Shown: positions 45,067-56,610, numbered from the stretch's first letter. The stretch: 64,000 nt of DNA from Candidatus Rifleibacterium sp. (GCA_035352635.1 DAOPYA010000006.1:3742-67741); one strand, 5' to 3'. Notes: generated by a model not told the origin, from the letters alone. Made by a program: numbers and translations.

Positions 45067-45696
45067 TTGGGGGTTGATATGCTGGCGAAAAATCTCGTTT
45101 TGAGCGCTTTCCTGGGTGCTGTGTTCTTTTCAGCCGGCTGTGGCAGCCAAGCGACTCCGGCCGCAAAAATCGTCAGCGTCAGTGGCCAGGTTGAAGCTAA
45201 AATCACAGCTGAACAGGGTTTTGCGACTGCGGCAGGCGATATGCAGCTGATGGCAGGCGGTGCCGTGAGAACTGCCAAAGATTCTTCTGCCAGCCTGATG
45301 ACCCTCGCTGATTCTGCAAAAGTCGATGTTGCGGCTGATTCATATTTTGAAGTGCGTGCGGGCAGCGACAAAATTGGGTTTCAGGGCGAGGGCAAGGCGG
45401 TTTATGACGTTAACAAACAGCAGAAATCTATTGTCGTTGAAACCAGGCATGGCAATACGGCGGTTCTCGGTACAAGATTCGGGCAGATAGTTTCGAGCAG
45501 CTCTTTTGAACTTTATGTTGCCAATGGCAAGGTTGAGTTTACAAATAAAACTGGTGAAAAACGCCAGGTTGGTGCCGGCCAGCAGCTAATCTGGAATACT
45601 TCAGAGGCGTTGCCGACGGTCGTTGAAACCAATGTGGTCGAATCAGAGGCAATTTTTGGCTCGGGTGACCGAAGCTTTGAATTTAACCGCCACTGA
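45067..45696 (+). CDS. Lipoprotein with FecR-like beta domain
   Basis: Lipobox LSAGC. Beta-rich FecR-like composition. First gene of the pilin-like operon. Confidence 0.5.
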   Translation: MGVDMLAKNLVLSAFLGAVFFSAGCGSQATPAAKIVSVSGQVEAKITAEQGFATAAGDMQLMAGGAVRTAKDSSASLMTLADSAKVDVAADSYFEVRAGSDKIGFQGEGKAVYDVNKQQKSIVVETRHGNTAVLGTRFGQIVSSSSFELYVANGKVEFTNKTGEKRQVGAGQQLIWNTSEALPTVVETNVVESEAIFGSGDRSFEFNRH

Positions 45697-45778
45697 CAAT
45701 TCAACAGTTTTTCTCAATGCTGCAACAAAAATGATATGCTGACCGTATGCACTTTGTCTGTTAAAGCGAGTTCGTTCG

Positions 45779-47203
45779 ATGGGGGCAAACATGAGATCGT
45801 TTAAAACAAGGCTTGGCATGGCCTTGCCTTTCACGATAATAGCGATGGTTGTGGTAGTTGGCTTTATCATGACCATGAGTCGCATGAATCAGGGTGTGAA
45901 AAACCAGATTTTTCACACCAATAATCACCAGTTGTCGTTTTTAATGGCCTATTCAGCCCTTTCACGGGTTTGTGCCAAAATACACTCTTTTTCGTGGGCG
46001 AATCGGCCGTTTGTTACTGACCCTCTGGTTGAAAACAAAGTGGCTCTGCAGGGTGGCGAGTATGATCTGCTCGTCGAAAACAGCAAAAACCGCGACTTTC
46101 AGGCTGATGTGTATGTGCGCACTCATCTGGCAGGCATTTCCAGAATGTATTTCTGGCGTGTAAGATTTAACGATGACCTGCTCGATGTGTCTAATCAGAT
46201 TTTTGTCGAAGCCTTTTTGAATGCTGATCCAAAAGATTTTCCGGTAGCTGGCAAGGCTAACCCCTTTGCCAGCAGAGTCGAAAGCATGCTTGCCCAGCGA
46301 GTCGCCAACCAGAAAAAATCCGACCAGCTGGCTCGTGAAATCATCAAGCTTAAAAAGCCCAATGATATTATCAAAGAGATTAATGGCCGGCCGATCGCGC
46401 CTGGCGACCCGGGCTTTCCACCCCCGCCTGAAGACATTGAAATTGCAAAAAAAGAACCGGTCGATGTGCCGCAGATGCCGCCACTCCCCGGCTCCGAAAA
46501 GCCATCCGCGCCTGGCCCCAGGGTCAACGTTCCGCCTTCTGCCACCGACAGCATGGTCGGCATCAATATGAATGCAAAGATGGCAAGTGTCGTCAGCTCT
46601 TCAAAATCGGCCTACGACTACACCGACCAGGGCTGGAAAAAAATTGAAGAGAAGGGAGTTGGGGGGATGTCAGAAGCGACTGATCTTCACACCCAGGCTG
46701 CCGAAGCCCGAGAAAAGGCCTTTGATGATATGAGCGATTTGATAACCGATGCCAGAACAGGCATCAATGACGCACCCAGCTCCGGTGCCGCAAAGGCCAT
46801 CGAAGAAATGGTTTCCCAGACGATCGTCGCCGGCGTGCAAAACCTCGGAAACGCCCTCAACCGAGGCATGGATCACCTTGACAACAACGCCGGCAGTGAT
46901 TATCTCAACTCATTGCCAACTGCAGAGTCGGTTGCCAAGCTTACCACCGACTGGGAAACCGCCCTGGTTAACGTAACCGCAGATGTTACCCGAATGACTG
47001 AATTGGCCAACGAAATCGGCCCATTTGCCAAGGCACCCGAAGTCGAGGCGGCTCTTGCAGCTGCCCTCGAGCAGGCCAGAGCTAATGTTGAACAGTTGAC
47101 CAAACTGGTTGAAGATGCAAAAAAGAGGCTCGAAGAACTCATCAAAAAAGAAGAAGAAGAAGCCGAGCGCCTTCGACAGCAGGAAAACGAGAGCCAGCAA
47201 TGA
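45779..47203 (+). CDS. Pilus/pseudopilus-associated protein with degenerate N-terminal pilin-like helix (PilX/GspK-like), Pro-rich linker and C-terminal coiled coil
   Basis: N-terminal LGMALPFTIIAMVVVVGFIMTMS. PPPPEDIE/PPLPGSEKPSAPGP linker. Stop overlaps the next gene's start (ATGA). Confidence 0.5.
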   Translation: MGANMRSFKTRLGMALPFTIIAMVVVVGFIMTMSRMNQGVKNQIFHTNNHQLSFLMAYSALSRVCAKIHSFSWANRPFVTDPLVENKVALQGGEYDLLVENSKNRDFQADVYVRTHLAGISRMYFWRVRFNDDLLDVSNQIFVEAFLNADPKDFPVAGKANPFASRVESMLAQRVANQKKSDQLAREIIKLKKPNDIIKEINGRPIAPGDPGFPPPPEDIEIAKKEPVDVPQMPPLPGSEKPSAPGPRVNVPPSATDSMVGINMNAKMASVVSSSKSAYDYTDQGWKKIEEKGVGGMSEATDLHTQAAEAREKAFDDMSDLITDARTGINDAPSSGAAKAIEEMVSQTIVAGVQNLGNALNRGMDHLDNNAGSDYLNSLPTAESVAKLTTDWETALVNVTADVTRMTELANEIGPFAKAPEVEAALAAALEQARANVEQLTKLVEDAKKRLEELIKKEEEEAERLRQQENESQQ

Positions 47204-47730
47204 AAATGCAGCACAAATCCGGAACCACCCTTGTCGAGCTTCTTGTGGTAATTGGCCTGGTGGGTTTGATCGGGGCCGCCGGCATGCACTTTTTTACCTC
47301 CGTAAACACCAGCCAGAAGGCTTTTTCGCAACAGGCGATTCTTCAGATGGAATCGCGCAAGGCATTCGACCAGATTATCGATCAGATTCGCGAGGGCACT
47401 GATGTAATCAGGCCTGTCACCGGCGAAACCATGCATTATATGGTTTTTCGCGACCTGCTGAATCAGGTGAACATGTTGTATCTCGAACCAAATAATGATG
47501 AATCAGTGCGCCTTAAACAGAGGGTTTACCGGCTGGTTTCATACTGCAATGATTTTTCAGGGGCATATAACAAGGCCAATGAAAAGATTTTGCACAATTC
47601 AATCAAGCAGTTACGGTTTTCGAGCCTTTCGCCTTCAAGCGTGCAGGTTAATGCAACCGTCGTCAGTGATAAGGGCGAATATCAGTTTCTCGCCCACGTC
47701 GGTTTGTTGAATGTCGGGGGGATCGAATGA
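47200..47730 (+). CDS. Prepilin-type N-terminal cleavage/methylation domain protein (minor pseudopilin-like)
   Basis: SG/TTLVELLVVIGLVGLIGAA with Glu +5. Confidence 0.7.
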   Translation: MKMQHKSGTTLVELLVVIGLVGLIGAAGMHFFTSVNTSQKAFSQQAILQMESRKAFDQIIDQIREGTDVIRPVTGETMHYMVFRDLLNQVNMLYLEPNNDESVRLKQRVYRLVSYCNDFSGAYNKANEKILHNSIKQLRFSSLSPSSVQVNATVVSDKGEYQFLAHVGLLNVGGIE

Positions 47731-49097
47731 AAACTTCGCGCAGACAGGGCATGACCCTTATCGAAATAACGATTGGCTTTGCCATTTTAACGGCGATCAG
47801 CGCCTTTTTTCTCAGTTTTCTGACTTCTTCTTCAAAAGAGATTTCGTTTTCGGCAGATCACTTTAATGCGGTTATTCTATCGCAGAAGGTCTGCGAAGAT
47901 TTGCTTGAAGAGATCGCCGTAAACCCTTATGGCCTTGAGACCCTTGGCATCGACGAATCAATCAACAGCAAACATGACGTTGTTGATGGCAGTTCGGTGT
48001 TCTTCTCTTTTATCGAAGACCGCACTGAGCCGTGGGGTTTGATTGAGCCGGCTAAAGATGGCATGATCAACAGTTCTATGCAGCCGCTTTATAGTTCAGT
48101 TAAAAAATTTAAATTCGGGGTTTCGGGCAGGCGCTTGGCAAAGACCGGCGACCACGAAGACCGCAATCTGGTTTCGTGCAATGTTGACTTCTCGTGGAGC
48201 GCTCAAACCGGCAAGGGAGCCTATAACAATTCATTTGAGCTTTTTTCGCCAGTTTCGGTCAAAAAGGTCTCGCTGGGCGTGTCGCTTAACGAGGCTGCAA
48301 TCGATGCCCGGATTCCCCCGGAAGTCTTTTATCAGCCCTCACAAACCATCGGAGAACTCGCAACCCGGATCGGTGAAAACGTTGATGCGGTGCTTTCGGT
48401 CGGGCGTATTTCTCTGGTAAGCCGCGACTTTATCAATTCACAGTTCTACCGTGATTCAAAAGATGCCATCAGGATTCTTTTGCGTAAACTCTCGACTCTT
48501 TCGGCCGATGACAGCGAAGAAATCTTCGAAACCCGCTTGCAGCTGGCAAAGACCTGGTATGAGCAGGCAAAGGTCTGCTTTCAGATCATCAGCTACCTCG
48601 AGCCGCATTTCACCACTCTGCAACAGCAGGGAAAATTTGACGGCACTTCTGGCAGCGGTTTTAACCCTATCAGTTTTCAACAAGATCTCATGAGCTTCAG
48701 AATCATTTATGAATTCTTTGCTGGTGCGATTGTTCAGGCCAGGTTTCATTATTATCAGCTGTTGCAGCCGGCCATGGTCGCTTTAAAAGGCAACAAGGCC
48801 CAGCTTCAGGTCATTCAGAAACTTATCGATATTTACCGCATCACTTCAATATTGCCCACCAGACCAGAAGGCATGGCAGAGTATCGAAGTTTTCTTAATC
48901 GCATCAAGGGCCTGTCAGAGAACCGTAACCCATTTGTTAACCGTATGATCGGCCATGAATTGAAGATGCTTGATAATCGCAATGACTGGCTGCAGCATTA
49001 CCCGAACCTTGGCCGCATCGATGATATGCTAACCGGCAAAATGCCGGGTATTCTTGCCTTCATAAAGACAAAGACCATAGGGGCGCTCACAAATTAA
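47727..49097 (+). CDS. Large prepilin-type N-terminal domain protein (GspK/minor pilin-like, 456 aa)
   Basis: RQG/MTLIEITIGFAILTAISAFF with Glu +5. Translationally coupled to the upstream pilin-like gene. Confidence 0.65.
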   Translation: MKTSRRQGMTLIEITIGFAILTAISAFFLSFLTSSSKEISFSADHFNAVILSQKVCEDLLEEIAVNPYGLETLGIDESINSKHDVVDGSSVFFSFIEDRTEPWGLIEPAKDGMINSSMQPLYSSVKKFKFGVSGRRLAKTGDHEDRNLVSCNVDFSWSAQTGKGAYNNSFELFSPVSVKKVSLGVSLNEAAIDARIPPEVFYQPSQTIGELATRIGENVDAVLSVGRISLVSRDFINSQFYRDSKDAIRILLRKLSTLSADDSEEIFETRLQLAKTWYEQAKVCFQIISYLEPHFTTLQQQGKFDGTSGSGFNPISFQQDLMSFRIIYEFFAGAIVQARFHYYQLLQPAMVALKGNKAQLQVIQKLIDIYRITSILPTRPEGMAEYRSFLNRIKGLSENRNPFVNRMIGHELKMLDNRNDWLQHYPNLGRIDDMLTGKMPGILAFIKTKTIGALTN

Positions 49098-49440
49098 GCC
49101 GGCCGACACACTCCGGGTTGCAATTTTTGTGCGTGCATAAGCTTTAAAGGCCTGTCTGGCCAGTTGATTTGCGGGCAAGAAACCGCACCGCTGGTGCAGA
49201 GGCCGATCAGTCTCTCAGTAATCAATCGTTATCAGGTATATCAACCGAAACGTATTAGCCTTCTTTTGTCAACCCAGCCTTTGACGCGCTTCTTTTTGCC
49301 GCTGTTGTGAAGACTGCCTTCATGTCGGTGCCCGCCTCTTGTAATAAAATGGAATATTCCCCACAATTCCCACAACCCGGCGCGAGGCCCTTTAATTGAC
49401 GCAAAAGGTTCTTTCGGCTCCCCGTAGATTTTTGCAGGCC
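49036..49440. pseudogene. Degenerate first copy of the duplicated module: flank Y1, deleted remnant of the 73-aa gene, promoter element P1
   Basis: 49036-49270 is about 90% identical to 51359-51590. 49271-49345 matches 51693-51790 (an internal deletion has removed most of the small gene). 49346-49410 is identical to 54250-54314. Confidence 0.7.
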
Positions 49441-49625
49441 TCAATAACACCCGGATTGAAAAATGGCCGCATGTCAAAAATTCGCGCATCGCCACTCAGC
49501 CATCAAGCCTGAAAAAACTGCGCGAACTCAAAAACCTCGCGGCCGAAGAAACCGCCGCAAAATAACCTTGTGGCCGATTTCCCTGGGCCGGTGACCTCGA
49601 AAAAATGACCTAAGACTCATGATTT

Positions 49626-50840
49626 TTAAGTCTGCTGGCTGAGGTCATGCAGGCGTTTTTTTGTGACTTTTTCGAGTTGGGTTCTTTGTTTTTCGGTCAT
49701 GGGGATCTGCTGCAGAATGGCTGAATACTGGCAGAACCTTGCTGTCAGCCGGTCGAGCATTTTGCTGACCGCCGCTTCAGAAACTCCGAACCGCCCGGCA
49801 AAGCTGACAAGATTACTCCTTTTGATGTTGTCGTCACGTCCATCAAGTTTCAAGGCCATTTTGTGGTCACCATAAATATGTGTGCAGAGCAGATCGTAGG
49901 CCGGCGAGACCTCGACTATCCTGCTTCCAGACTTGACGAGCAGGCTGATATTCTTTGCATGCAGATCGCCGTTGCCAATGAGATACGAGAACGCATAAAC
50001 CTCAATCAGCCTTAGTATGGCAACCTTCGCCGCCGATACATGCGTTGTGACGCCCCTGGCAATATCATTAAAAGCGACTCGATACTTGTCGGCCGGGTAG
50101 CGGTCGAGCATCTGGCAGGCGTCTTCCTGATGATGCCTAAGAAATCTGCCGGTTTTTTCGTTCCAGACGCGGTCGAATCGTGTGACGAGAAGGCCATTAT
50201 TGCCGTCGCGGTCTCTAACCAGACTGGTTCTGGCCGCTTCAATGCTGCATTTTTGTGCTAGTTGCATGCAGAAGTGTTCATTCTCAACCAGATTCGGTTT
50301 GTCGGGCGGATTCAACTTGAGAATATACCGGCAATTCTCTTTCGCAATGTTGACAGGGAAACTGATCATCGATGCCGAGAGTTTTTCCTGGGCTCCTGCA
50401 ATCGCCTCGTCGCGCATAATTGCATTGCCGGATAACACTTTCTGAAAATATTCGTAGAAATTTATTTCTCTGAGCTTTGGAATCTGTGCTTCATCCTCAG
50501 AGCGCTCGACGCCGGCATAGACATCACCGATTACCTGATCGCCGATGCTTGCGAAAAGACTGAAAAGATCGTCTTCAGAAGTCTTTAGATTTCGCACCAG
50601 CGACTTTAATCGTAACCCTTCGGGCAGCAGTCCCGCAAAAAACGGAAAAAGATTGACGCCAGGGTTGATCAGGCGTGCCGGGCTTTTCTTCATGCAGAAA
50701 GAAATCCCTGCAAAATTCTGCTGCCGCAGAAAATCGTCGTCGAACACAAACTCGCAGCCGGCAGGCGTTCTGCGCAAGATTCCGGCTCGCTGACCATCTC
50801 GAAAGATGTTTAATTCGCTGATCGAACGGGCGTCTTTCAT
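49626..50840 (-). CDS. hipA: HipA-family serine/threonine kinase toxin
   Basis: HipA N and C domains. GNGDLHAKNISL catalytic motif. 4-bp overlap with hipB. Confidence 0.85.
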   Translation of the reverse strand: MKDARSISELNIFRDGQRAGILRRTPAGCEFVFDDDFLRQQNFAGISFCMKKSPARLINPGVNLFPFFAGLLPEGLRLKSLVRNLKTSEDDLFSLFASIGDQVIGDVYAGVERSEDEAQIPKLREINFYEYFQKVLSGNAIMRDEAIAGAQEKLSASMISFPVNIAKENCRYILKLNPPDKPNLVENEHFCMQLAQKCSIEAARTSLVRDRDGNNGLLVTRFDRVWNEKTGRFLRHHQEDACQMLDRYPADKYRVAFNDIARGVTTHVSAAKVAILRLIEVYAFSYLIGNGDLHAKNISLLVKSGSRIVEVSPAYDLLCTHIYGDHKMALKLDGRDDNIKRSNLVSFAGRFGVSEAAVSKMLDRLTARFCQYSAILQQIPMTEKQRTQLEKVTKKRLHDLSQQT

Positions 50841-51094
50841 TTTTCAACAATATTCTCTGAAGTTCGGAAGCCTGAACCTCCGGGGGTAAGGGCCAACTCG
50901 AGGCCGAGAACATCAATTACGGCAAGCAGCTTGTCGAGCTGTGTTTTGGGCTTGCCGTTTTCGAGCTGCGAAACGTAGTTAAGACTGACACCCGCCAGGT
51001 CGGCCAGCTGTGTCTGAGTCAGACCGAGATTTTTGCGGTAGTCCTTGATTGCCGCACCTAATTTTTTAGTTACCTGCGAACTCGAATTGTTCAT
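50837..51094 (-). CDS. hipB: HipB-like XRE-family HTH antitoxin/transcriptional regulator
   Basis: LGLTQTQLADLAGVSLNYVSQLENGK helix-turn-helix. Confidence 0.8.
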   Translation of the reverse strand: MNNSSSQVTKKLGAAIKDYRKNLGLTQTQLADLAGVSLNYVSQLENGKPKTQLDKLLAVIDVLGLELALTPGGSGFRTSENIVEK

Positions 51095-51157
51095 TTTTCC
51101 TATGTGTGAAGTAAAAATTTAACTTATCCTACTAAAGTATATTGATTTTTATAAAAA

Positions 51158-51366
51158 TTACAATGATCGTGCGAAAAAAGTTAAAAATCCTCTGAAAAAA
51201 TATAATTCTGCAGGAAATTCATGCGATCATGTGAAAAATGATTGTTTTATGGCTGCCCCTGATTCTGACGCTGACCCTTTTTCTGGTCTGGCCCCAGGTC
51301 TCTCTGCCACGGCTTTTTCAAAGACTGCAATGCGTTCCGCATGCATCTGCTGGCGAAATGCCTGGC
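51158..51366 (-). pseudogene. Deleted copy (X2) of the 3' part of the periplasmic-protein gene 55835-56458 and its downstream DNA
   Basis: 51158-51291 matches 55756-55876 and 51291-51366 matches 56070-56150. The 195-bp internal deletion is bounded by TTCTGG short repeats. Encodes only the C-terminal ..KKGQRQNQGQP fragment. Confidence 0.7.
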
Positions 51367-51538
51367 ATTCTTGCCTTCATCAAGGCAAAAACCATTGGGG
51401 CGCTCACAAATTAAACTGGTCGCTGCACTCCGGGTTGCCATTTTTGTGCGTGCATAAGCTTTAAAGGCCTGCATGGCCAGTTGATTGGCGGGAAGGAAGC
51501 CGCAACGCTGGTGCAGAGGCCGATCAGCCGCTCAGTAA

Positions 51539-51760
51539 TCAATCGTTATCAGGTATATCAACCGAAACGTATTCGCCTTCTTTTGGTGTGCGTTTTTTGA
51601 AATTTTCAATTGGCACATAAATCTCAATGGTGGCATCAGGGTCATCGGGGTGCTTGATAACCACCACCACAATGCCGCCGGTTACGCGGTCTACCCAGCC
51701 TTTGACGCGCTTCTTTTTGCCGCTGTTATGAAGACTGCCTTCATGTCGGTGCCCGCTCAT
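51539..51760 (-). CDS. Small hypothetical protein (73 aa, basic N-terminus, acidic C-terminus)
   Basis: Intact copy. A deleted remnant lies at 49271-49345. Immediately downstream of the 755-aa gene. Confidence 0.5.
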   Translation of the reverse strand: MSGHRHEGSLHNSGKKKRVKGWVDRVTGGIVVVVIKHPDDPDATIEIYVPIENFKKRTPKEGEYVSVDIPDND

Positions 51761-51822
51761 AAGTTTACTCCTGAAATAAAATAGAATGTTCCCCTGAGAT
51801 TCAACAAAAGCGTTCAGCAGGT

Positions 51823-54090
51823 TTACATGTTGTGGTAATCGATGCCGGTCAGTTGAATATGACCGGGTAGAAACTTCTTGAAAATGCTGCCGATATAATC
51901 GACGGCATCGTTTAAAATCTGGTTATCGGGGTCAATCAAGTAGCCTGGGCCAATATGCCGGCAGATATCGCTGACAATTTCATCAGTCGGAAGCTTTTCG
52001 TCGGTCAGGCGGCTCATACGGGTTGTAACCCAGGTAACGATCAACGGAATGCAGGAAGGCGAAGTTTTAAACGCGAGTTCGAACCAGCGCTCGGCTTCGG
52101 CGAATTCACCACATCTTTTGCATATAATACCAAGACCGAGCAAGGCATCGAGGGAATTTGCTACTTTATTCAATTCTTCGTGATAATGCGTTTTGGCAAG
52201 GGCCAGATTTTTTTCTGGCTCAATGTCGTTGACGGCAAGGGTTTTATAGGTGCGTGCCAGCATATAAGAAACTTGGCCAAGGGCTGGTTGGTCTTTGGCC
52301 AGGGCTTCACAGGCCTGAATTGTTTCGGCGTATTTTTGTTGGCTGAACAGGGCGTTGATATTTGCAAAACGCCCGCTGACATCAATATAGCCGGTCTTAT
52401 TAAAGATTTTGATCGGCGTCAACGAAGGGTAGCCAACTACAGCAACGCGATAGTTGCCCTGCGATTGCCTCAGGCCTTCAGCAAAGTTTTCGCTGCCCTC
52501 TTTGCAATAAAACTGGCTGCTGATGGCGCGATCAAGATCGCAATTGTAGAGCGAAAGAATATTGCCTTCAACAAATGGTATTTTGACGCTTTGTAGTTTT
52601 TCAATTGGCACTTCGAGATAGACTTGCAGGTTTTCGCCCTTGAACTGCAGGCGTGCGTGATGAATCATCGGCGAAAACACGAAATAGATAATGGTCGGCA
52701 CCTTTACTACGCCCGGATCAGATAGAAACGCGGTAAATGAATTACGGGCCATCATGGTATCGATGTGATCGGGTGCAGTTTCGCGTGTGGCAGATTTCAT
52801 GATTTCCCATAGTTCGGCGGCTCTGGCTTCGATTTTTGCAAAAGCAGGCGAAGCACGCAGTTCAGCTTCAAGCGCTTCGCATTCATCGAGTCTGGCTATT
52901 GCCTTTTGGCAGCCGGGGAAAATGCCTGGCCAGGTTAGTGCTACGCCGCATGACTGCGGAGCTTTCGGCGATTGCCTGGCGACTTCGAGCCATTGTTTGA
53001 CCTGTTTTCGGCTCAACATCAGAGCGTCACCGGTGCAAAGCAGCATTTCGACAGTAAGATCATTGAGGTTGCCTGCATAATCGGCAATCAACCGCTGCAT
53101 AAACGTTTCAGGGTTAAATTCGCCGCCGTCAGAGGCTGGCGCCAGGCTTTTTTCTTTGCGGGTTTGATCGAAGATGCGCTGATAGAGGTCGGGTGGGATG
53201 GGCACGAACTCGCGTAGATTTCTTATTATTTCTTTTTCTTCGTTCGACAGGTTTTCGTCGGCCATGATGTCTTTCAAGGCCGCGGAATAGATAGTTTCGA
53301 CGCTGAGTGACCGGTGGGCGGGTGCTGGTGGCGTAGCGGTAGTGGTTTCAATGGCGGCGGTCAGTTCATTCAACATGGCGGTTACCTCAGCATTTTTGCT
53401 GAGTTTGCTGAGGCGTGACAATTCGGTTTTCAGGGCATCACGGCTTGCCGGAATAAAGCCGAAAGCACGTTTCTGGCAGTGACGGGCCACCTTGACTACC
53501 AGGCCGAAATCATTTATCAGCTCAGGCACTGCTATAAGCAGGGCTGCGTTCCAGCGGAGCTGAGCCGCAAAAAGCACGTCGCAGCAGTTCAGAGCAGCGT
53601 AGAGCAGGAACTCCAGGGAGTGCTTCATGTATTGGGCGAGAAAGTTTCCGTTGCCCGGCATTTTCGACCAGCGGGTGAAGAGGCCTGAGAACATGAAGGT
53701 TTCCATTTGTCGAACATGTTCGGCAAAAATATAATCGCAGGTCAGTGTTGAAGAAATTTTCGCGGCAAAATAAGAAGGTGTGAAGAGATCGGGGTAAATA
53801 AACAGATTGTGTATTTCGGCGTTCCATGGCTCTTGATCGGCGTAGAACCGCGCATACCGCAGAAACATTTCAAGCACCGCAGGGTAGTATGAAAAATTAC
53901 GTTGATGTGGCAGCAGCGCCAGACGAAATGCTTCGGTGAAGCCCTGGCAGATAGCTTGCTTTTCTTCAGTGGGACGTGAATGGGTAGGGTTGTATTCGCC
54001 CCGCATGTAATCGAGATTATCTTTGATATCCTCGTGATTGCTGTTCCAGAGGGCCTCAAACAGATCCCGAAAAAATGGTAGACCCGCCAT
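51823..54090 (-). CDS. Large cytoplasmic hypothetical protein (755 aa) with C-terminal TPR-like repeats
   Basis: No signal peptide and no recognisable catalytic motif. TPR-like helical pairs in the last 250 aa. Confidence 0.6.
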   Translation of the reverse strand: MAGLPFFRDLFEALWNSNHEDIKDNLDYMRGEYNPTHSRPTEEKQAICQGFTEAFRLALLPHQRNFSYYPAVLEMFLRYARFYADQEPWNAEIHNLFIYPDLFTPSYFAAKISSTLTCDYIFAEHVRQMETFMFSGLFTRWSKMPGNGNFLAQYMKHSLEFLLYAALNCCDVLFAAQLRWNAALLIAVPELINDFGLVVKVARHCQKRAFGFIPASRDALKTELSRLSKLSKNAEVTAMLNELTAAIETTTATPPAPAHRSLSVETIYSAALKDIMADENLSNEEKEIIRNLREFVPIPPDLYQRIFDQTRKEKSLAPASDGGEFNPETFMQRLIADYAGNLNDLTVEMLLCTGDALMLSRKQVKQWLEVARQSPKAPQSCGVALTWPGIFPGCQKAIARLDECEALEAELRASPAFAKIEARAAELWEIMKSATRETAPDHIDTMMARNSFTAFLSDPGVVKVPTIIYFVFSPMIHHARLQFKGENLQVYLEVPIEKLQSVKIPFVEGNILSLYNCDLDRAISSQFYCKEGSENFAEGLRQSQGNYRVAVVGYPSLTPIKIFNKTGYIDVSGRFANINALFSQQKYAETIQACEALAKDQPALGQVSYMLARTYKTLAVNDIEPEKNLALAKTHYHEELNKVANSLDALLGLGIICKRCGEFAEAERWFELAFKTSPSCIPLIVTWVTTRMSRLTDEKLPTDEIVSDICRHIGPGYLIDPDNQILNDAVDYIGSIFKKFLPGHIQLTGIDYHNM

Positions 54091-54249
54091 TGTGAATGTT
54101 CCTCCGTGTTTTAAAGACCATTATTTTTTTCTAGTTGCTAAAGTTCAGCTGTCCGGTTGGTTGGCACAGATTATGTCAATTTCTGTCGCTCTCAATGGCT
54201 TTTCCAGCTTTATTTCGCCACTGCTAAAGATTTATAACACAGCCAGCCA

Positions 54250-54314
54250 ATTCCCACAACCCGGCGCGAGGCCCTTTAATTGACGCAAAAGGTTCTTTCG
54301 GCTCCCCGTAGAAC
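54250..54314. promoter_or_regulatory. Conserved 65-bp element P2 upstream of the 755-aa gene (identical copy P1 at 49346-49410)
   Basis: AATTCCCACAACCCGGCGCGAGGCCCTTTAATTGACGCAAAAGGTTCTTTCGGCTCCCCGTAGA is present at both loci. Confidence 0.55.
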
Positions 54315-54414
54315 ATTCTTTGCCTTCGTGGGAATCGTCTTGATGAGTTTAAAAGGCCCGCCTGCAAGAGGTGCGCGGGCGGGCCTTTGTGTTAAACTTG
54401 TTCAGAAGCTGGTT

Positions 54415-55590
54415 TCAGGAAAAAAGTGAGCGCAGGCGTTTGGCGCCCTGACCGATCAGTGAGGCGCCGCTTGACCAGAGGTCAGCGACTGCCTTGCCGG
54501 CTGAGCCTGCACTGCTGGCGATGTTGCCACCGACAATGGCCGCGCCGCCGCTGACACGATTCCAGAGGCCGCCCTGTTTCCAGCGTTCCTGGCCCCAGTT
54601 GCTCATGTTTCTGCCCGAATTTTTCGCGAAGTTTGAAGCGACGCCAACAATGGCGCCGGGCAGGCCAAGAACCAGTTTGGTGGCACCGCCGATAGTCTGA
54701 GTGACCGAGCGGTTGGTCCAGCCGTTTACGACGTCATTGATGCCCGATGCCATGTTGTCTTCGGTCGCGGTTTCAAAGGTGCCGGGGTATGGGGTAGAGG
54801 TCGGGCTGCAGGTGCCATTATTGTCGATAAGAACGTTTGAATAGCTCACCAGGCTGCCGAGAACGCTATTGCCGAATGGCTTGTTCCAGGAGGTCATGAA
54901 TTTGTCGATCGGCATGGTGTGCGGGCCTTCGTCGCCCCAGTAAGAATCGCGCATGCGCAGCGAAACGACATTACCGCTGGCATCGGTATCATAACCGGTA
55001 ATACATACCCAATGGGGCACGCCGCCGCTCGATTCGACCAGAACGATCACCGGCTTGCCTTCGTCTATTCTTTTTGTAATATCTTTAATGCCGGCGCGGT
55101 TTTTCATGCGTGCATCGATGCCGTTCGCACGCAGATATTCAGCAATCGTCGGGGGCGCAGTGAAAATACCTTTCGGGTTTGATTCCTGGTAAACCTTCTG
55201 CGGGTCGGCCTCGATGCCCATACCTTTCAGAAGAGTGCTCATTGCAAACTGGCCGCAGTAGTTGTCACCGTCAATATTGATATCCAGATTGTCGTAATTT
55301 TTAAGATGGTGTTCTTTGGCATTCTCTGGTCTGGCTTCATTGCGCTTGCCTTTCCAGGGGCCGAGGGTGCGGTAGATGCGGCTCAGATCTTTTATCAGCG
55401 ACGGTTCGTCTGCTCCTGGCGTTGCAGTATCGCCTTCATCAGGGGCAGAGTCTGCGGCTGTTGCAACCGGCGTGCTCTCACTTTTAGCCGGAATGGTCAC
55501 ACTATCTACGTTAAATGGGTTCGCATCGGCGATTGACAAGGCGCAAAGAAACCAAGCGGTCATCAGCAGAAACGAAAATCTTCTGAACAT
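54415..55590 (-). CDS. Secreted papain-fold cysteine peptidase, C39-like (Peptidase_C39_2-type), with Gly/Ala/Ser-rich C-terminal tail
   Basis: Signal peptide. Cys in NYCGQFAMSTLL and His in GVPHWVCITGY arranged as in C39 peptidases. C-terminal 90 aa is G/A/S-rich. Confidence 0.6.
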   Translation of the reverse strand: MFRRFSFLLMTAWFLCALSIADANPFNVDSVTIPAKSESTPVATAADSAPDEGDTATPGADEPSLIKDLSRIYRTLGPWKGKRNEARPENAKEHHLKNYDNLDINIDGDNYCGQFAMSTLLKGMGIEADPQKVYQESNPKGIFTAPPTIAEYLRANGIDARMKNRAGIKDITKRIDEGKPVIVLVESSGGVPHWVCITGYDTDASGNVVSLRMRDSYWGDEGPHTMPIDKFMTSWNKPFGNSVLGSLVSYSNVLIDNNGTCSPTSTPYPGTFETATEDNMASGINDVVNGWTNRSVTQTIGGATKLVLGLPGAIVGVASNFAKNSGRNMSNWGQERWKQGGLWNRVSGGAAIVGGNIASSAGSAGKAVADLWSSGASLIGQGAKRLRSLFS

Positions 55591-55834
55591 ACTGCTACCT
55601 CCGGCGTTTTCTACTATTATACTCAGAACTCACCAGAAAAGTTTTACTTTAGCCTGAGATTTAAAACAATAAACTAAGGGTCAGGCGTTTTCCGGGTGCG
55701 GGCTGAGATTCTGCAGGCATTTTTTTTGACTTTTTTCGAGCTGATTACAATGATCGTGCGAAAAAATGTTAAAAAGCATCTGAAAAAACATAATTCTGCA
55801 GGAAATTCATGCGATCATGTGAAAAATGATTGTT

Positions 55835-56458
55835 TTATGGCTGCCCCTGATTCTGACGCTGACCCTTTTTCTGGCTCATGAAAGCTTTTGCCGATTCTTT
55901 CTGGCTCTGAAAAAAGGCCTGCAGCTTTTCGTTCAGTGCCTGCCCCTCAAGATTTGAATCGGCGCCAACTTTGTCGAGAAAGTCCATGTTTTCCTGATGC
56001 TTCCCGGCAAAAAAGGCTTTGAATTCTTCGTAAGACCTTGTAAATCTGGCAAGGGCCTGTTCCCGCATTTCTGGTCTGGCACCAGGTCCCTCTGCAACTG
56101 CCTTTTCAAAGGCTGCAATGCGTTCCGCATGCATCTGCTGGCGAAATGCCGAATTCTTCTCATACTGGCGGGTCTTGAACTCCTTCAGAGCCTGTATCAG
56201 TTCAGACTTCGGCTTTCCCTGCATTGACGCCATGAATTGCTTACCCTCTGCAGCCTCTTCGGCAAGAAATTCCTGCAGTCTGGCCTGCTGCTCCGAAAAA
56301 AGCTTGCCCATCTGCATGCTGCCGCTCTTAGTTCCCATTTTTCCATTCTGAGCCTGCATATTCTGCGCCAATACGGGCTGGTTTAAAATGCTGCCGGCGA
56401 GAAGGCCGGCGACGGCGAGCGCTTTCATTGTCGAAAAAAACAGTCTGCTTCTGCTCAT
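55835..56458 (-). CDS. Periplasmic all-helical Gln/Lys-rich hypothetical protein
   Basis: Signal peptide MKALAVAGLLAGSILNQPVLAQ. A truncated duplicate of its 3' end lies at 51158-51366. Confidence 0.55.
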   Translation of the reverse strand: MSRSRLFFSTMKALAVAGLLAGSILNQPVLAQNMQAQNGKMGTKSGSMQMGKLFSEQQARLQEFLAEEAAEGKQFMASMQGKPKSELIQALKEFKTRQYEKNSAFRQQMHAERIAAFEKAVAEGPGARPEMREQALARFTRSYEEFKAFFAGKHQENMDFLDKVGADSNLEGQALNEKLQAFFQSQKESAKAFMSQKKGQRQNQGQP

Positions 56459-56610
56459 TTATTTTTTTCCTCCCGGAGTAACAGATTCGAGAAACCTGGC
56501 CAGCCAGGCATGGTTATGTCTGTCGCTGCCTGCTTATGATACTCCCGGTTCGGTTCGGGGCCAAAACAATATTATTAACGAACATGTCTGGTCGTTAATT
56601 TTCGCTTTTT

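What the first reader, a model, noticed from the sequence alone, without database searches (positions are those of the whole stretch)
49036..56458. Ancient tandem duplication of a gene module whose variable slot carries hipBA in one copy and a secreted C39-like peptidase in the other
The duplicated unit reads flank Y, 73-aa gene, 755-aa gene, 65-bp element P, variable slot, flank X.
- Copy 1 (49036-51366): Y1, a remnant of the 73-aa gene with an internal deletion, the 755-aa gene missing entirely, P1, hipBA (read on the minus strand), then X2, which carries a 195-bp deletion between TTCTGG repeats.
- Copy 2 (51359-56150): Y2, the intact 73-aa gene, the 755-aa gene, P2, the C39-like peptidase, then intact X1 running into the periplasmic-protein gene.
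- The copy1/copy2 junction at about 51359-51366 joins X-end to Y-start across the microhomology AAATGCC..ATTCTT. This is the classic signature of a tandem duplication.
- Y1 is the original because it contains the true 3' end of the pilin-like gene 47727-49097. Y2 carries a fossil of those last 17 codons.
- The two copies are only about 90% identical, so the event is old. The slot content was exchanged afterwards, which makes the slot look like a hotspot for toxin or effector cassettes.
Basis: seen in the sequence. Interest (0 to 1): 0.8.

Follow-up and report, generated by a model that had tools for sequence, protein, structure and literature searches.

The report
Decayed tandem duplication, reciprocal gene loss
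A stretch of about 9 kb in a Candidatus Rifleibacterium chromosome was duplicated head-to-tail and then lost a different subset of genes from each copy, so the hipBA-versus-peptidase "variable slot" is most likely a product of deletions rather than a cassette hotspot; it is a well-preserved example of an ordinary process.

Summary
The repeat architecture is real. Y, the S remnant, P and X recur collinearly, and the X-end/Y-start junction is at 51352-51372. The same DNA, 100% identical, appears in seven public assemblies that all span the junction, so it is not an assembly artefact. Both parental breakpoints carry GGCRAAATGCC, which occurs only three times in the 64-kb window.

The "slot exchange" reading is not supported for hipBA. 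Copy 2 keeps both ends of a hipBA operon: hipB's native upstream region (X-left) and a 73-bp fossil of the hipA 3' end (55671-55743), 89% identical to a relative's hipA. Copy 1 keeps fossils of a 184-aa-family gene and of vapB between P1 and hipA. Relatives L031, L018 and L033 link C39, a 420-aa gene, the 184-aa gene, vapBC and hipBA as neighbours.

The best model is a unit of about 9 kb (S, 755, C39, 420, 184, vapBC, hipBA), duplicated and then eroded by at least nine deletions to 7.1 kb, leaving one intact copy of each surviving gene. P is a sliver between two deletion scars. Whether C39 was ever present in copy 1 remains inferred. On a wider scale, the AA-kinase to M20 interval is hypervariable among relatives. 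This is an ordinary process, unusually well preserved.

The parts
47727..49097 (+). Pilin-like (prepilin N-terminal) 456-aa gene. Its last 63 bp hold the left parental breakpoint motif GGCAAAATGCC (49035-49045).
   Evidence: N_methyl, weak; orthologues at 78-80%.
49035..49267 (.). Y1: original left end of the duplicated unit (pilin-like gene 3' end, intergenic DNA, 3' end of S).
49268..49362 (-). S1 fossil: 73-aa gene remnant with a 104-bp internal deletion and loss of the start codon. The adjacent 2453-bp deletion removed the 755-aa gene.
49364..49428 (.). P1: 65-bp sliver left between the 755 deletion and the slot deletion; 100% identical to P2.
49455..49568 (+). Fossil of the last ~37 codons of a 184/185/205-aa-family gene (...RIATQPSSLKKLRELKNLAAEETAAK*).
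49572..49623 (+). Fossil of the vapB 3' end plus the vapC start (GRFPWAGDLEKMT*DS*). The rest of vapBC was removed by two deletions relative to L031.
49626..50840 (-). hipA, intact (HipA_C + Couple_hipA), with a derived tail and a premature TAA three codons before the ancestral TGA.
   Evidence: dN/dS 0.17 vs L031.
50837..51094 (-). hipB (HTH_3 antitoxin); its stop overlaps the hipA start.
51136..51163 (-). Promoter-like site of hipBA (TTGTAA-16-TATACT). The -35 lies inside X, the -10 outside.
51157..51246 (.). X2-left: hipB upstream region; also conserved upstream of hipB in L032.
51247..51362 (-). Fossil of the 207-aa gene (codons ~104-130 and 195-207) with a 200-bp deletion between TTTCTGG repeats (at 51280-51286).
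51352..51372 (.). Duplication junction GGCGAAATGCC-TGGCATTCTT (X-end joined to Y-start).
   Evidence: spanned by seven assemblies.
51352..51585 (.). Y2, including a fossil of the last ~21 codons of the pilin-like gene (51352-51414).
51539..51760 (-). S: intact 73-aa gene, homologous to the N-terminus of the 178/179-aa proteins of relatives.
51823..54090 (-). 755-aa orphan gene (C-terminal TPR-like region), the conserved anchor of the island next to M20 in all relatives.
54248..54312 (.). P2: intergenic DNA between the C39 terminator and the 755-aa gene.
54351..54385 (-). Intrinsic terminator of the C39 gene (GGCCCGCC...GGCGGGCC TTTT), conserved in L018. Homology to L018 and L033 ends just beyond it.
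54415..55590 (-). C39-like cysteine peptidase (Peptidase_C39_2; invariant C112, H193, D215). Member of a family found throughout Riflebacteria.
55591..55670 (-). Native upstream region of C39, conserved with L018 and L033.
55671..55743 (-). Fossil of the hipA 3' end (QLEKSQKKCLQNLSPHPENA*), left after deletion of about 1.48 kb of hipBA from copy 2.
   Evidence: (89% to L031, E 7e-20).
55744..55834 (.). X1-left: orphaned hipB upstream region in copy 2.
55835..56458 (-). Intact 207-aa gene with a signal-peptide-like N-terminus. It contains the right parental breakpoint motif GGCGAAATGCC (56140-56150).

Best explanation
Window 49035-56158 is the eroded remnant of one direct tandem duplication in a Candidatus Rifleibacterium chromosome.

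Formation. Illegitimate, microhomology-mediated recombination or template switching joined two copies of an 11-nt hairpin-forming motif, GGCRAAATGCC (followed by ATTCTT). One copy lies in the 3' end of a pilin-like gene and the other in the middle of a 207-aa gene.

Content of the unit. Shown parts of the duplicated unit are Y, S, the 755-aa gene, P, the 184-family gene, vapBC, hipA, hipB and X. Two further parts are inferred from synteny in relatives: the C39 peptidase and a 420-aa NlpC/P60-like gene between P and the 184-family gene. That gives a unit of about 9.1 kb.

Decay. At least nine deletions, some between short direct repeats (TTTCTGG, GGT), then removed redundant DNA.
- Copy 1 lost part of S, all of the 755-aa gene, C39, the 420-aa gene and most of the 184-family gene, most of vapBC, and 200 bp of the 207 fragment.
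- Copy 2 lost the 420-aa gene, the 184-family gene, vapBC, and all of hipBA except 73 bp.

Outcome. Every surviving gene is single-copy. The two-copy region (7.1 kb) is shorter than one original unit. hipBA has moved from beside the 207-aa gene to beside the pilin-like gene without any recombinase. This is duplication followed by random loss. The apparent slot and the element P are by-products of deletion breakpoints.
For: Duplication and junction. Seven assemblies span the junction at 100% identity.

hipBA was once in copy 2:
- The fossil at 55671-55743 matches L031 hipA at 89% (E 7e-20).
- It translates to the HipA tail of P0092 through to the stop codon.
- It abuts X-left, which is hipB's native upstream region in L032 and carries the -35 of the hipBA promoter.

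Copy 1 decay: fossils of the 184-family gene and of vapB lie in frame order between P1 and hipA, as in L031.

Synteny in relatives:
- L031: 420, 205, vapBC, hipA, hipB.
- L018: C39, 420, 184.
- L033: C39 next to 420.

Timing: neutral divergence between the copies is about 0.13-0.14. That is below dS to the nearest relatives (hipA vs L031 0.33; C39 vs L018 0.50; core genes vs L003/L005/L006 0.55-1.0). This is consistent with none of the relatives showing the duplication in the contigs recovered.

No mobile-element signs: there is no integrase or transposase among the called genes, no tRNA, no plasmid or phage similarity, and no inverted repeats at the edges.

Unit size estimate: 9127 bp.
Against: - No single relative contig shows the whole inferred unit. 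It is pieced together from L018, L031, L032 and L033, which themselves differ: the C39/420 order is swapped between L018 and L033, and L031 has vapBC where L018 has a 178-aa gene.
- No C39 or 755 fossil survives in copy 1, and no 420, 184 or vapBC fossil survives in copy 2.
- Homology of the C39 unit to relatives stops exactly at its promoter and terminator edges. A moved module would look the same.
- Divergence between the copies is heterogeneous. P has 0/65 differences and the S coding parts are 97-98% identical, against 87% in intergenic Y. This needs gene conversion, late inactivation or constraint as an extra assumption.
- 26 bp (49429-49454) have no identified origin.
- The seven assemblies may share raw data in part, and no long-read evidence was available.
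Confidence: 0.75

Rival explanations
1. One reading: a tandem duplication of a unit with a single slot, followed by replacement of the slot content (hipBA in one copy, C39 in the other), so that the site between P and X is a hotspot for toxin or effector cassettes.
For: - The C39 transcription unit is a discrete block. Homology to L018 and L033 ends at its promoter and terminator, and it has three different neighbours in three genomes.
- No C39 fossil is left in copy 1.
- The wider AA-kinase to M20 interval varies in gene content among relatives, including TA modules (hipBA, vapBC).
Against: - Copy 2 retains both ends of hipBA, so hipBA was not swapped in; it was deleted.
- Beside P1 lies only the truncated 3' end of the 184-family gene.
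- X-left is the hipB promoter region, not an attachment site.
- There is no recombinase, no att-like inverted repeats, and P does not recur elsewhere.
- C39 belongs to a vertically inherited family found throughout Riflebacteria and linked to the 420 and 184 genes in relatives.
Confidence: 0.15
2. The two copies were never identical in this genome. A homologous segment from a related strain (~90% identical) was inserted next to the resident one by illegitimate recombination, producing a pseudo-duplication that was diverged from the start.
For: - Related Rifleibacterium strains with ~90% identical hipBA co-occur in sister samples (L031 from JGI 3300010353).
- Divergence between the copies is uneven.
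Against: - The junction joins sequences whose parental versions both lie in this chromosome at the expected outer positions and share an 11-nt motif. That is the footprint of an in-situ sister-strand event.
- The copy-2 hipA fossil is no closer to copy 1 than to L031, but this is explained by the derived tail of copy 1.
- No foreign flanks are present.
Confidence: 0.06
3. An assembly artefact (a chimeric join or a misassembled repeat), or a mobile element bounded by the Y, P and X repeats.
For: - Some contigs break inside the repeats: ERZ27257449 ends at 51188 in X2, and L012 and L013 start in X1.
Against: - Seven assemblies from at least five samples and different assemblers give identical sequence across the junction.
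- The copies differ by 3-15%, so short reads can tell them apart.
- Y and X are fragments of the flanking chromosomal genes.
- There is no transposase, no plasmid or phage similarity, and no terminal inverted repeats.
Confidence: 0.02

Closest known systems
Tandem duplication-random loss (duplication-random loss, DRL/TDRL) model of gene-order change, classically invoked for animal mitochondrial genomes (for example PMC5745709, PMC4223735)
   Same: A block of genes is duplicated in tandem. One copy of each gene is then lost. Pseudogene and non-coding remnants mark the lost copies. Gene order changes while orientation is kept and no recombinase is involved.
   Different: This case is in a bacterial chromosome. 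Three genes (the 420-aa gene, the 184-family gene and vapBC) were lost from both copies. One of the reshuffled units is a toxin-antitoxin operon. The duplication breakpoints cut two protein-coding genes, whose truncated copies remain.
Bacterial tandem duplications with short-junction or microhomology joins (Andersson and Hughes 2009, as cited in bioRxiv 10.64898/2026.05.22.727201, which places RecA-independent MMEJ at 5-25 bp of microhomology)
   Same: A head-to-tail join at about 11 nt of near-perfect microhomology, with no long flanking repeats such as IS elements or rRNA operons.
   Different: Such duplications are normally unstable and are seen as recent, identical copies. This one persisted long enough to diverge by ~6-13% and has been locked in by deletions that reduced the shared homology to patches of 65-330 bp.
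hipBA type II toxin-antitoxin module
   Same: A HipA kinase-fold toxin (PF07804 + PF13657) preceded by an overlapping HTH antitoxin gene, with a promoter-like site upstream.
   Different: Activity was not tested. The C-terminal tail is shortened by a lineage-specific premature stop. A second, deleted copy survives only as a promoter region and a 73-bp 3' end.
Integration hotspots and defence or TA islands between conserved core genes
   Same: The AA-kinase to M20 interval carries different accessory genes in each relative, including hipBA, vapBC, secreted peptidases and a serpin.
   Different: No integrase, tRNA or att sites were found. The variation documented here is explained by duplication and deletion, not by site-specific insertion.

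Membership tests
Direct tandem segmental duplication | Two collinear head-to-tail copies of the same sequence order | tested here: met
   Y, S, P, (hipA tail) and X recur in the same order and orientation.
Direct tandem segmental duplication | A novel junction joining the unit's right end to its left end, with both parental contexts present at the outer edges | tested here: met
   The junction is at 51352-51372. The parental sites are 49035-49045 (in the intact pilin-like gene) and 56140-56150 (in the intact 207-aa gene).
Direct tandem segmental duplication | Reproducible in independent data, so not an assembly artefact | tested here: met
   Seven assemblies, 100% identical, span the junction. 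No long reads were available.
Direct tandem segmental duplication | Single-copy state in outgroups | tested here: inconclusive
   The 755-aa gene (L003, L005, L006), C39 (L018, L033) and hipBA (L031, L032) each occur once per recovered contig. No relative contig covers the whole unit.
Duplication-random loss rearrangement | Complementary loss that leaves one functional copy per retained gene | tested here: met
   S, the 755-aa gene and C39 are intact only in copy 2. hipA and hipB are intact only in copy 1. The pilin-like gene and the 207-aa gene are intact only at the outer edges.
Duplication-random loss rearrangement | Remnants of the lost copies at the expected collinear positions | tested here: met
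   Fossils of S, the 184-family gene, vapB and the 207-aa gene are in copy 1. Fossils of the pilin-like gene and hipA are in copy 2. None was found for the 755-aa gene or C39 in copy 1.
Duplication-random loss rearrangement | The ancestral single-copy order is known from an outgroup | tested here: inconclusive
   The order is pieced together from partial contigs L018, L031, L032 and L033, which are themselves rearranged relative to one another.
Cassette-exchange hotspot (integron-like or site-specific integration site) | A site-specific recombinase or integrase associated with the site | tested here: not met
   None among the called genes with Pfam hits across window positions 37.7-59 kb, nor among the ten ORFs scanned.
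Cassette-exchange hotspot (integron-like or site-specific integration site) | Conserved recombination sites that bound the cassettes | tested here: not met
   P's edges are deletion breakpoints: the 755 deletion on one side and the truncated 184-family gene on the other. X-left is the hipB promoter region. P is absent from relatives and unstructured.
Cassette-exchange hotspot (integron-like or site-specific integration site) | Different cassettes at the same site in different genomes | tested here: inconclusive
   True for the whole AA-kinase to M20 interval. No genome other than this species has the P...X site.
HipBA type II toxin-antitoxin | HipA N-terminal and C-terminal domains above the Pfam thresholds | tested here: met
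   HipA_C 162 bits, Couple_hipA 58 bits.
HipBA type II toxin-antitoxin | An upstream, overlapping HTH antitoxin gene | tested here: met
   The 85-aa HTH_3 protein gene (50837-51094) overlaps the hipA start.
HipBA type II toxin-antitoxin | Kinase-dependent growth arrest neutralised by HipB | not testable with these tools
   This needs expression assays. Only purifying selection was seen (dN/dS 0.17 vs L031).
Peptidase_C39_2 (C39-like cysteine peptidase) | A Pfam PF13529 match above the gathering score | tested here: met
   29.3 bits against a cut-off of 24.
Peptidase_C39_2 (C39-like cysteine peptidase) | Conserved catalytic Cys and His | tested here: met
   C112 (GDNYCGQFAM) and H193 (PHW) are invariant in 13 Riflebacteria homologues. 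The catalytic role is inferred from the family, not shown.
   The N-terminus MFRRFSFLLMTAWFLCALSIADA looks like a Sec signal peptide by eye. No predictor was run.

The most novel reading that the evidence does not exclude
Gene order in the AA-kinase to M20 island of Rifleibacterium is reshuffled mainly by repeated cycles of tandem duplication and random loss, seeded at short hairpin-forming motifs. The window shows one nearly completed cycle. The C39/420 order swap with preserved orientation between L018 and L033 would be another. Toxin-antitoxin operons (hipBA, vapBC) would be both passengers and partial stabilisers: once the other hipBA copy is gone, recombination between Y1 and Y2 would delete the only one left. 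If this holds, duplication-loss rather than site-specific integration would drive variability in this accessory island.
Probability: 0.2. Interest if true: 0.45.

Novelty: new member of a known kind. Interest (0 to 1): 0.27.

Why it matters
The finding shows that two different genes sitting between the same repeats need not indicate a cassette hotspot. Fossils a few dozen bases long, read against close relatives, show that differential deletion after a tandem duplication produced the pattern.

It is a rare bacterial example in which most steps of a duplication-loss rearrangement are still legible: the junction motif, six gene fossils and microhomology at two of the deletions. It also documents a toxin-antitoxin operon changing its chromosomal neighbours without any mobile-element machinery.

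It does not reveal a new molecular system.

Tried and rejected
- Rfam scan of 47-58 kb at E ≤ 1: only two sub-threshold chance hits and nothing at P.
- tRNA scan of the window: none.
- Folding of P on both strands and with flanks: not more stable than shuffles (z +1.3 to -1.5).
- P, intergenic Y and the 755 upstream region against all relatives: no homologues apart from the C39 terminator.
- PADLOC and NCBIfam on S, the 755-aa protein, C39 and the 207-aa protein: nothing meaningful.
- Genome-collection scan with the 207-aa protein: only 58-60% homologues at unrelated loci of the same outgroup MAGs, so no single-unit locus.
- Metagenome scan with the pilin-like protein: orthologous operons at 78-80% continue with other genes and lack the unit. 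Homology stops at the stop codon.
- Plasmid and phage BLASTN of 49000-56500: no match.
- AlphaFold2 of the 755-aa protein with its five-sequence alignment: mean pLDDT 49.7, unusable, so no fold search was run.
- PDB profile searches: none for C39; only TPR-repeat matches for residues 615-680 of the 755-aa protein.
- Extending the 184-family fossil over 49429-49454: not significant (347 of 2000 shuffles score as well).
- I considered that hipBA stabilises the initial duplication by addiction and dropped the idea. With two hipBA copies, a collapse keeps one, so any stabilising effect can only begin after copy 2 lost its hipBA.

Full report

Yes.

| Segment | Copy 1 | Copy 2 | Identity |
|---|---|---|---|
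| Y | 49035-49268 | 51352-51585 | 89.7% |
| S gene remnant | 49268-49362 | 51689-51794 | 84% |
| P | 49364-49428 | 54248-54312 | 65/65 |
| X-left | 51157-51286 | 55744-55874 | 97% |
| X-right | 51280-51372 | 56068-56158 | 90% |

Base-level alignments show the following.
- In copy 1 the 73-aa gene has a 104-bp internal deletion and an 11-bp deletion that removes its start codon.
- A 2453-bp deletion in copy 1 removes the 755-aa gene.
- A 200-bp deletion in X2 lies between 7-bp TTTCTGG repeats.
- The junction reads GGCGAAATGCC-TGGCATTCTT.

Both parental breakpoints carry the small hairpin-forming motif GGCRAAATGCC. The motif occurs only three times in the 64-kb window, at the two parental sites and at the junction, against 0.28 expected.

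**2. Is it an assembly artefact?**

No. Exact-protein look-ups recovered the same region from seven assemblies:
- JGI 3300010352, 3300025867 and 3300009692;
- ENA ERZ27257449 and ERZ27257423;
- NCBI GCA_964580875.1 and GCA_035402685.1.

All are 100% identical to the window (one has a single mismatch), and all span 51352-51372. The copies differ by 3-15%, so short reads can tell them apart. The organism is named Candidatus Rifleibacterium sp. in the NCBI record of the 755-aa protein.

**3. What are the genes?**

- hipA has HipA_C and Couple_hipA domains. hipB is an 85-aa HTH_3 protein whose gene overlaps the hipA start.
- The 391-aa protein passes the Peptidase_C39_2 threshold (29.3 bits against 24). 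It belongs to a family of 86 proteins, named in the database only from Riflebacteria and related MAGs (one entry is labelled Erysipelotrichia). C112, H193 and D215 are invariant in an alignment of 13 of them.
- The 755-aa protein is an orphan with four other clusters at 68-76% identity, all from Riflebacteria. It shows only weak TPR signals and is under purifying selection (dN/dS about 0.10).
- The 73-aa protein S resembles the N-terminus of the 178/179-aa proteins of relatives (E 9e-7).
- PADLOC and NCBIfam add nothing.

**4. The key new evidence: fossils read against relatives**

*(a) A hipA fossil in copy 2.*
- On the minus strand the copy-2 sequence reads QLEKSQKKCLQNLSPHPENA*. The closest foreign HipA (P0092, 90% identical) ends QLEKVTKKRLQDLSPQPENA.
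- At DNA level, 55671-55743 is 89% identical to the hipA 3' end on contig L031 (E 7e-20).
- The lower identity to the window's own hipA arises because that gene has a derived tail. It has a premature TAA, with the ancestral TGA still in frame three codons later.
- The fossil abuts X-left directly. X-left is hipB's native upstream region: it is conserved upstream of hipB in relative L032 and carries the -35 hexamer of the predicted hipBA promoter, whose -10 lies just outside X in copy 1.
- Copy 2 therefore retains both ends of a hipBA operon and has lost about 1.48 kb in between.

*(b) Fossils in copy 1 between P1 and hipA.*
- The + strand reads ...RIATQPSSLKKLRELKNLAAEETAAK* PCGRFPWAGDLEKMT*DS*.
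- These are the C-termini of a 184/185/205-aa-family protein and of VapB. In L031 the corresponding proteins end ...RIATQPSSLKKLRELEALAAEEAAGK* and ...FRGRLPWAGDLDKMRSDS*, and the genes lie in that order next to hipA.
- So 26 bp beyond P1's right edge there is only the last ~37 codons of a gene that has lost about 80% of its length. That is a deletion scar.

*(c) Linkage in relatives.*
- L031 has 420, 205, vapB, vapC, hipA and hipB in that order.
- L018 has C39, 420 and 184 as neighbours.
- L033 has C39 next to the 420-aa gene.
- The genes that occupy the two "slots" are thus neighbours in the nearest sampled relatives.

**5. Reconstruction**

The simplest history starts from a pre-duplication order: pilin-like gene, Y, S, 755, P, C39, 420, 184, vapBC, hipA, hipB, X/207. 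That unit is about 9.1 kb. It was duplicated in tandem at the GGCRAAATGCC motifs and then eroded.
- Copy 1 lost part of S, the 755-aa gene, C39 with the 420-aa gene and most of the 184-family gene, most of vapBC, and 200 bp of the 207 fragment.
- Copy 2 lost the 420-aa gene, the 184-family gene, vapBC and most of hipBA.

Today's two-copy span is 7124 bp, shorter than one original unit, and every surviving gene is single-copy. P is the 65-bp sliver between the 755 deletion and the slot deletion in copy 1. It has no homologue in relatives and no significant fold.

**6. Timing**

Differences between the copies total 39/599 (6.5%), excluding the hipA tail. They are heterogeneous: intergenic Y is 87% identical, the S coding parts 97-98%, and P 100% (chi-square p = 0.0017).

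| Comparison | Divergence | Source |
|---|---|---|
| Copies, neutral-looking intergenic part | about 0.13-0.14 | |
| hipA vs L031 | dS 0.33 | |
| C39 vs L018 | dS 0.50 | |
| Core flanking genes vs L003/L005/L006 | dS 0.55-1.0 | |

The duplication therefore post-dates the split from every sampled relative. That fits the fact that none of them shows it in the contigs recovered. The low divergence of the S coding parts suggests that S1 was inactivated late or was gene-converted.

**7. What remains uncertain**

- No relative contig covers the whole inferred unit.
- No C39 or 755 fossil survives in copy 1.
- The C39 transcription unit is conserved with L018 and L033 from its promoter region to its terminator. 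In the three genomes it has three different neighbours, and homology ends exactly at its edges.
- The C39/420 order is swapped between L018 and L033 with orientations preserved. Duplication-loss would produce this pattern, but it also shows that this neighbourhood is very fluid.
- Reciprocal loss is therefore robust for hipBA (about 0.9) and only the more parsimonious option for C39 (about 0.65).

**8. The hotspot idea on a larger scale**

Between the conserved AA-kinase and M20 genes (93-98% amino-acid identity to the relatives), gene content differs in every relative.

| Genome | Content between AA-kinase and M20 |
|---|---|
| L005 | the 755-aa gene only |
| L006 | 582-aa gene, 185-aa gene, 755-aa gene |
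| L003 | serpin, 429-aa gene, S (inverted), 755-aa gene (M20 side; the AA-kinase end of the island is not on the contig) |
| L032 | 179-aa gene and hipBA next to AA-kinase |
| Window | pilin-like operon plus the duplicated unit |

Conserved flanks resume at about 44917 and 56656. This is a plasticity zone, but I found no integrase, tRNA, att-like repeats, or plasmid or phage similarity.

**9. Comparison with what is known**

- The junction matches the class of bacterial tandem duplications formed at microhomology without RecA-length repeats. bioRxiv 10.64898/2026.05.22.727201 cites Andersson and Hughes 2009 for the instability of such duplications, and gives 5-25 bp of microhomology as the range for RecA-independent MMEJ.
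- What is unusual is only the state of preservation, and the fact that a TA operon was relocated in this way.

**10. Verdict**

This is an instance of a known process, of modest interest.

Noticed in passing
window 51823-54090; L003 10001-12268; L005 1968-4232; L006 737-3001: The 755-aa orphan protein (mostly helical, with a TPR-like stretch at residues 615-680) is found only in Riflebacteria. In all three outgroup contigs that reach M20 (L003, L005, L006) it sits directly next to the M20 peptidase gene; in the window C39 and the 207-aa gene lie between them. It evolves much faster than its core neighbours (68-76% against 93-98% amino-acid identity) yet is under purifying selection (dN/dS about 0.1). 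Its function is unknown.
   Followed up: partly
window 51539-51760 vs L003 12379-12579: The 73-aa gene S is inverted relative to the 755-aa gene in L003: convergent there, co-directional in the window. Duplication-loss cannot explain an inversion. S is also homologous to the N-terminus of the 178/179-aa proteins that follow hipBA in L032 and lie next to the 184-aa gene in L018.
   Followed up: partly
window 51238-51414 (+): A 58-aa chimeric ORF spans the duplication junction: the antisense strand of the 207 fossil fused to the fossil C-terminus of the pilin-like gene (...MPGILAFIKAKTIGALTN). Public annotations call it as a gene. Five of the six substitutions in the pilin-derived part are synonymous.
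   Followed up: no
window 49626-49640: The window's hipA ends three codons early (TAA), inside a cluster of about 7 substitutions in 12 nt. This lies right beside the breakpoint of the vapC deletion. The ancestral TGA is still in frame downstream.
   Followed up: partly
window 49956 (ends of L012 and L013): Two independent contigs (ENA ERZ27257423 and JGI 3300009692) both stop at window position 49956, inside hipA. This could reflect a co-occurring strain with a ~90% identical hipA, such as L031, splitting the assembly graph.
   Followed up: no
L018 11375 and L019 2714: Two contigs of the L018 lineage, from different runs, both end 199 bp downstream of C39. This hints at a repeat or a structural polymorphism at that point in that organism too.
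   Followed up: no
L018 8427-11176 vs L033 78-2746: The order of C39 and the 420-aa (weakly NlpC/P60-like) gene is swapped between two relatives while both orientations are preserved. This is the pattern expected from an independent duplication-loss event.
   Followed up: partly
window 45067-49097 vs L024 5477-13660: In relatives the FecR, 474, 176, 456 pilin-like operon has about 2 kb of extra sequence between FecR and the 474-aa gene. It also continues with 423-aa and 333-aa genes that are absent here. Homology to the window stops at the stop codon of the 456-aa gene (49095), and in those relatives the operon is not next to AA-kinase.
   Followed up: partly
window 55835-56458; L015-L017: Homologues of the 207-aa signal-peptide protein (58-60% identical) lie at unrelated loci in the same outgroup MAGs that lack it next to M20. 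The gene has therefore moved, or it is a paralogue.
   Followed up: partly
window 54415-54700 (C-terminal ~100 aa of the C39-like protein): The family has a conserved glycine-rich C-terminal region with many invariant Gly residues (G302-G380) outside the peptidase domain. One homologue is annotated as ElaB/YqjD/DUF883-like.
   Followed up: no
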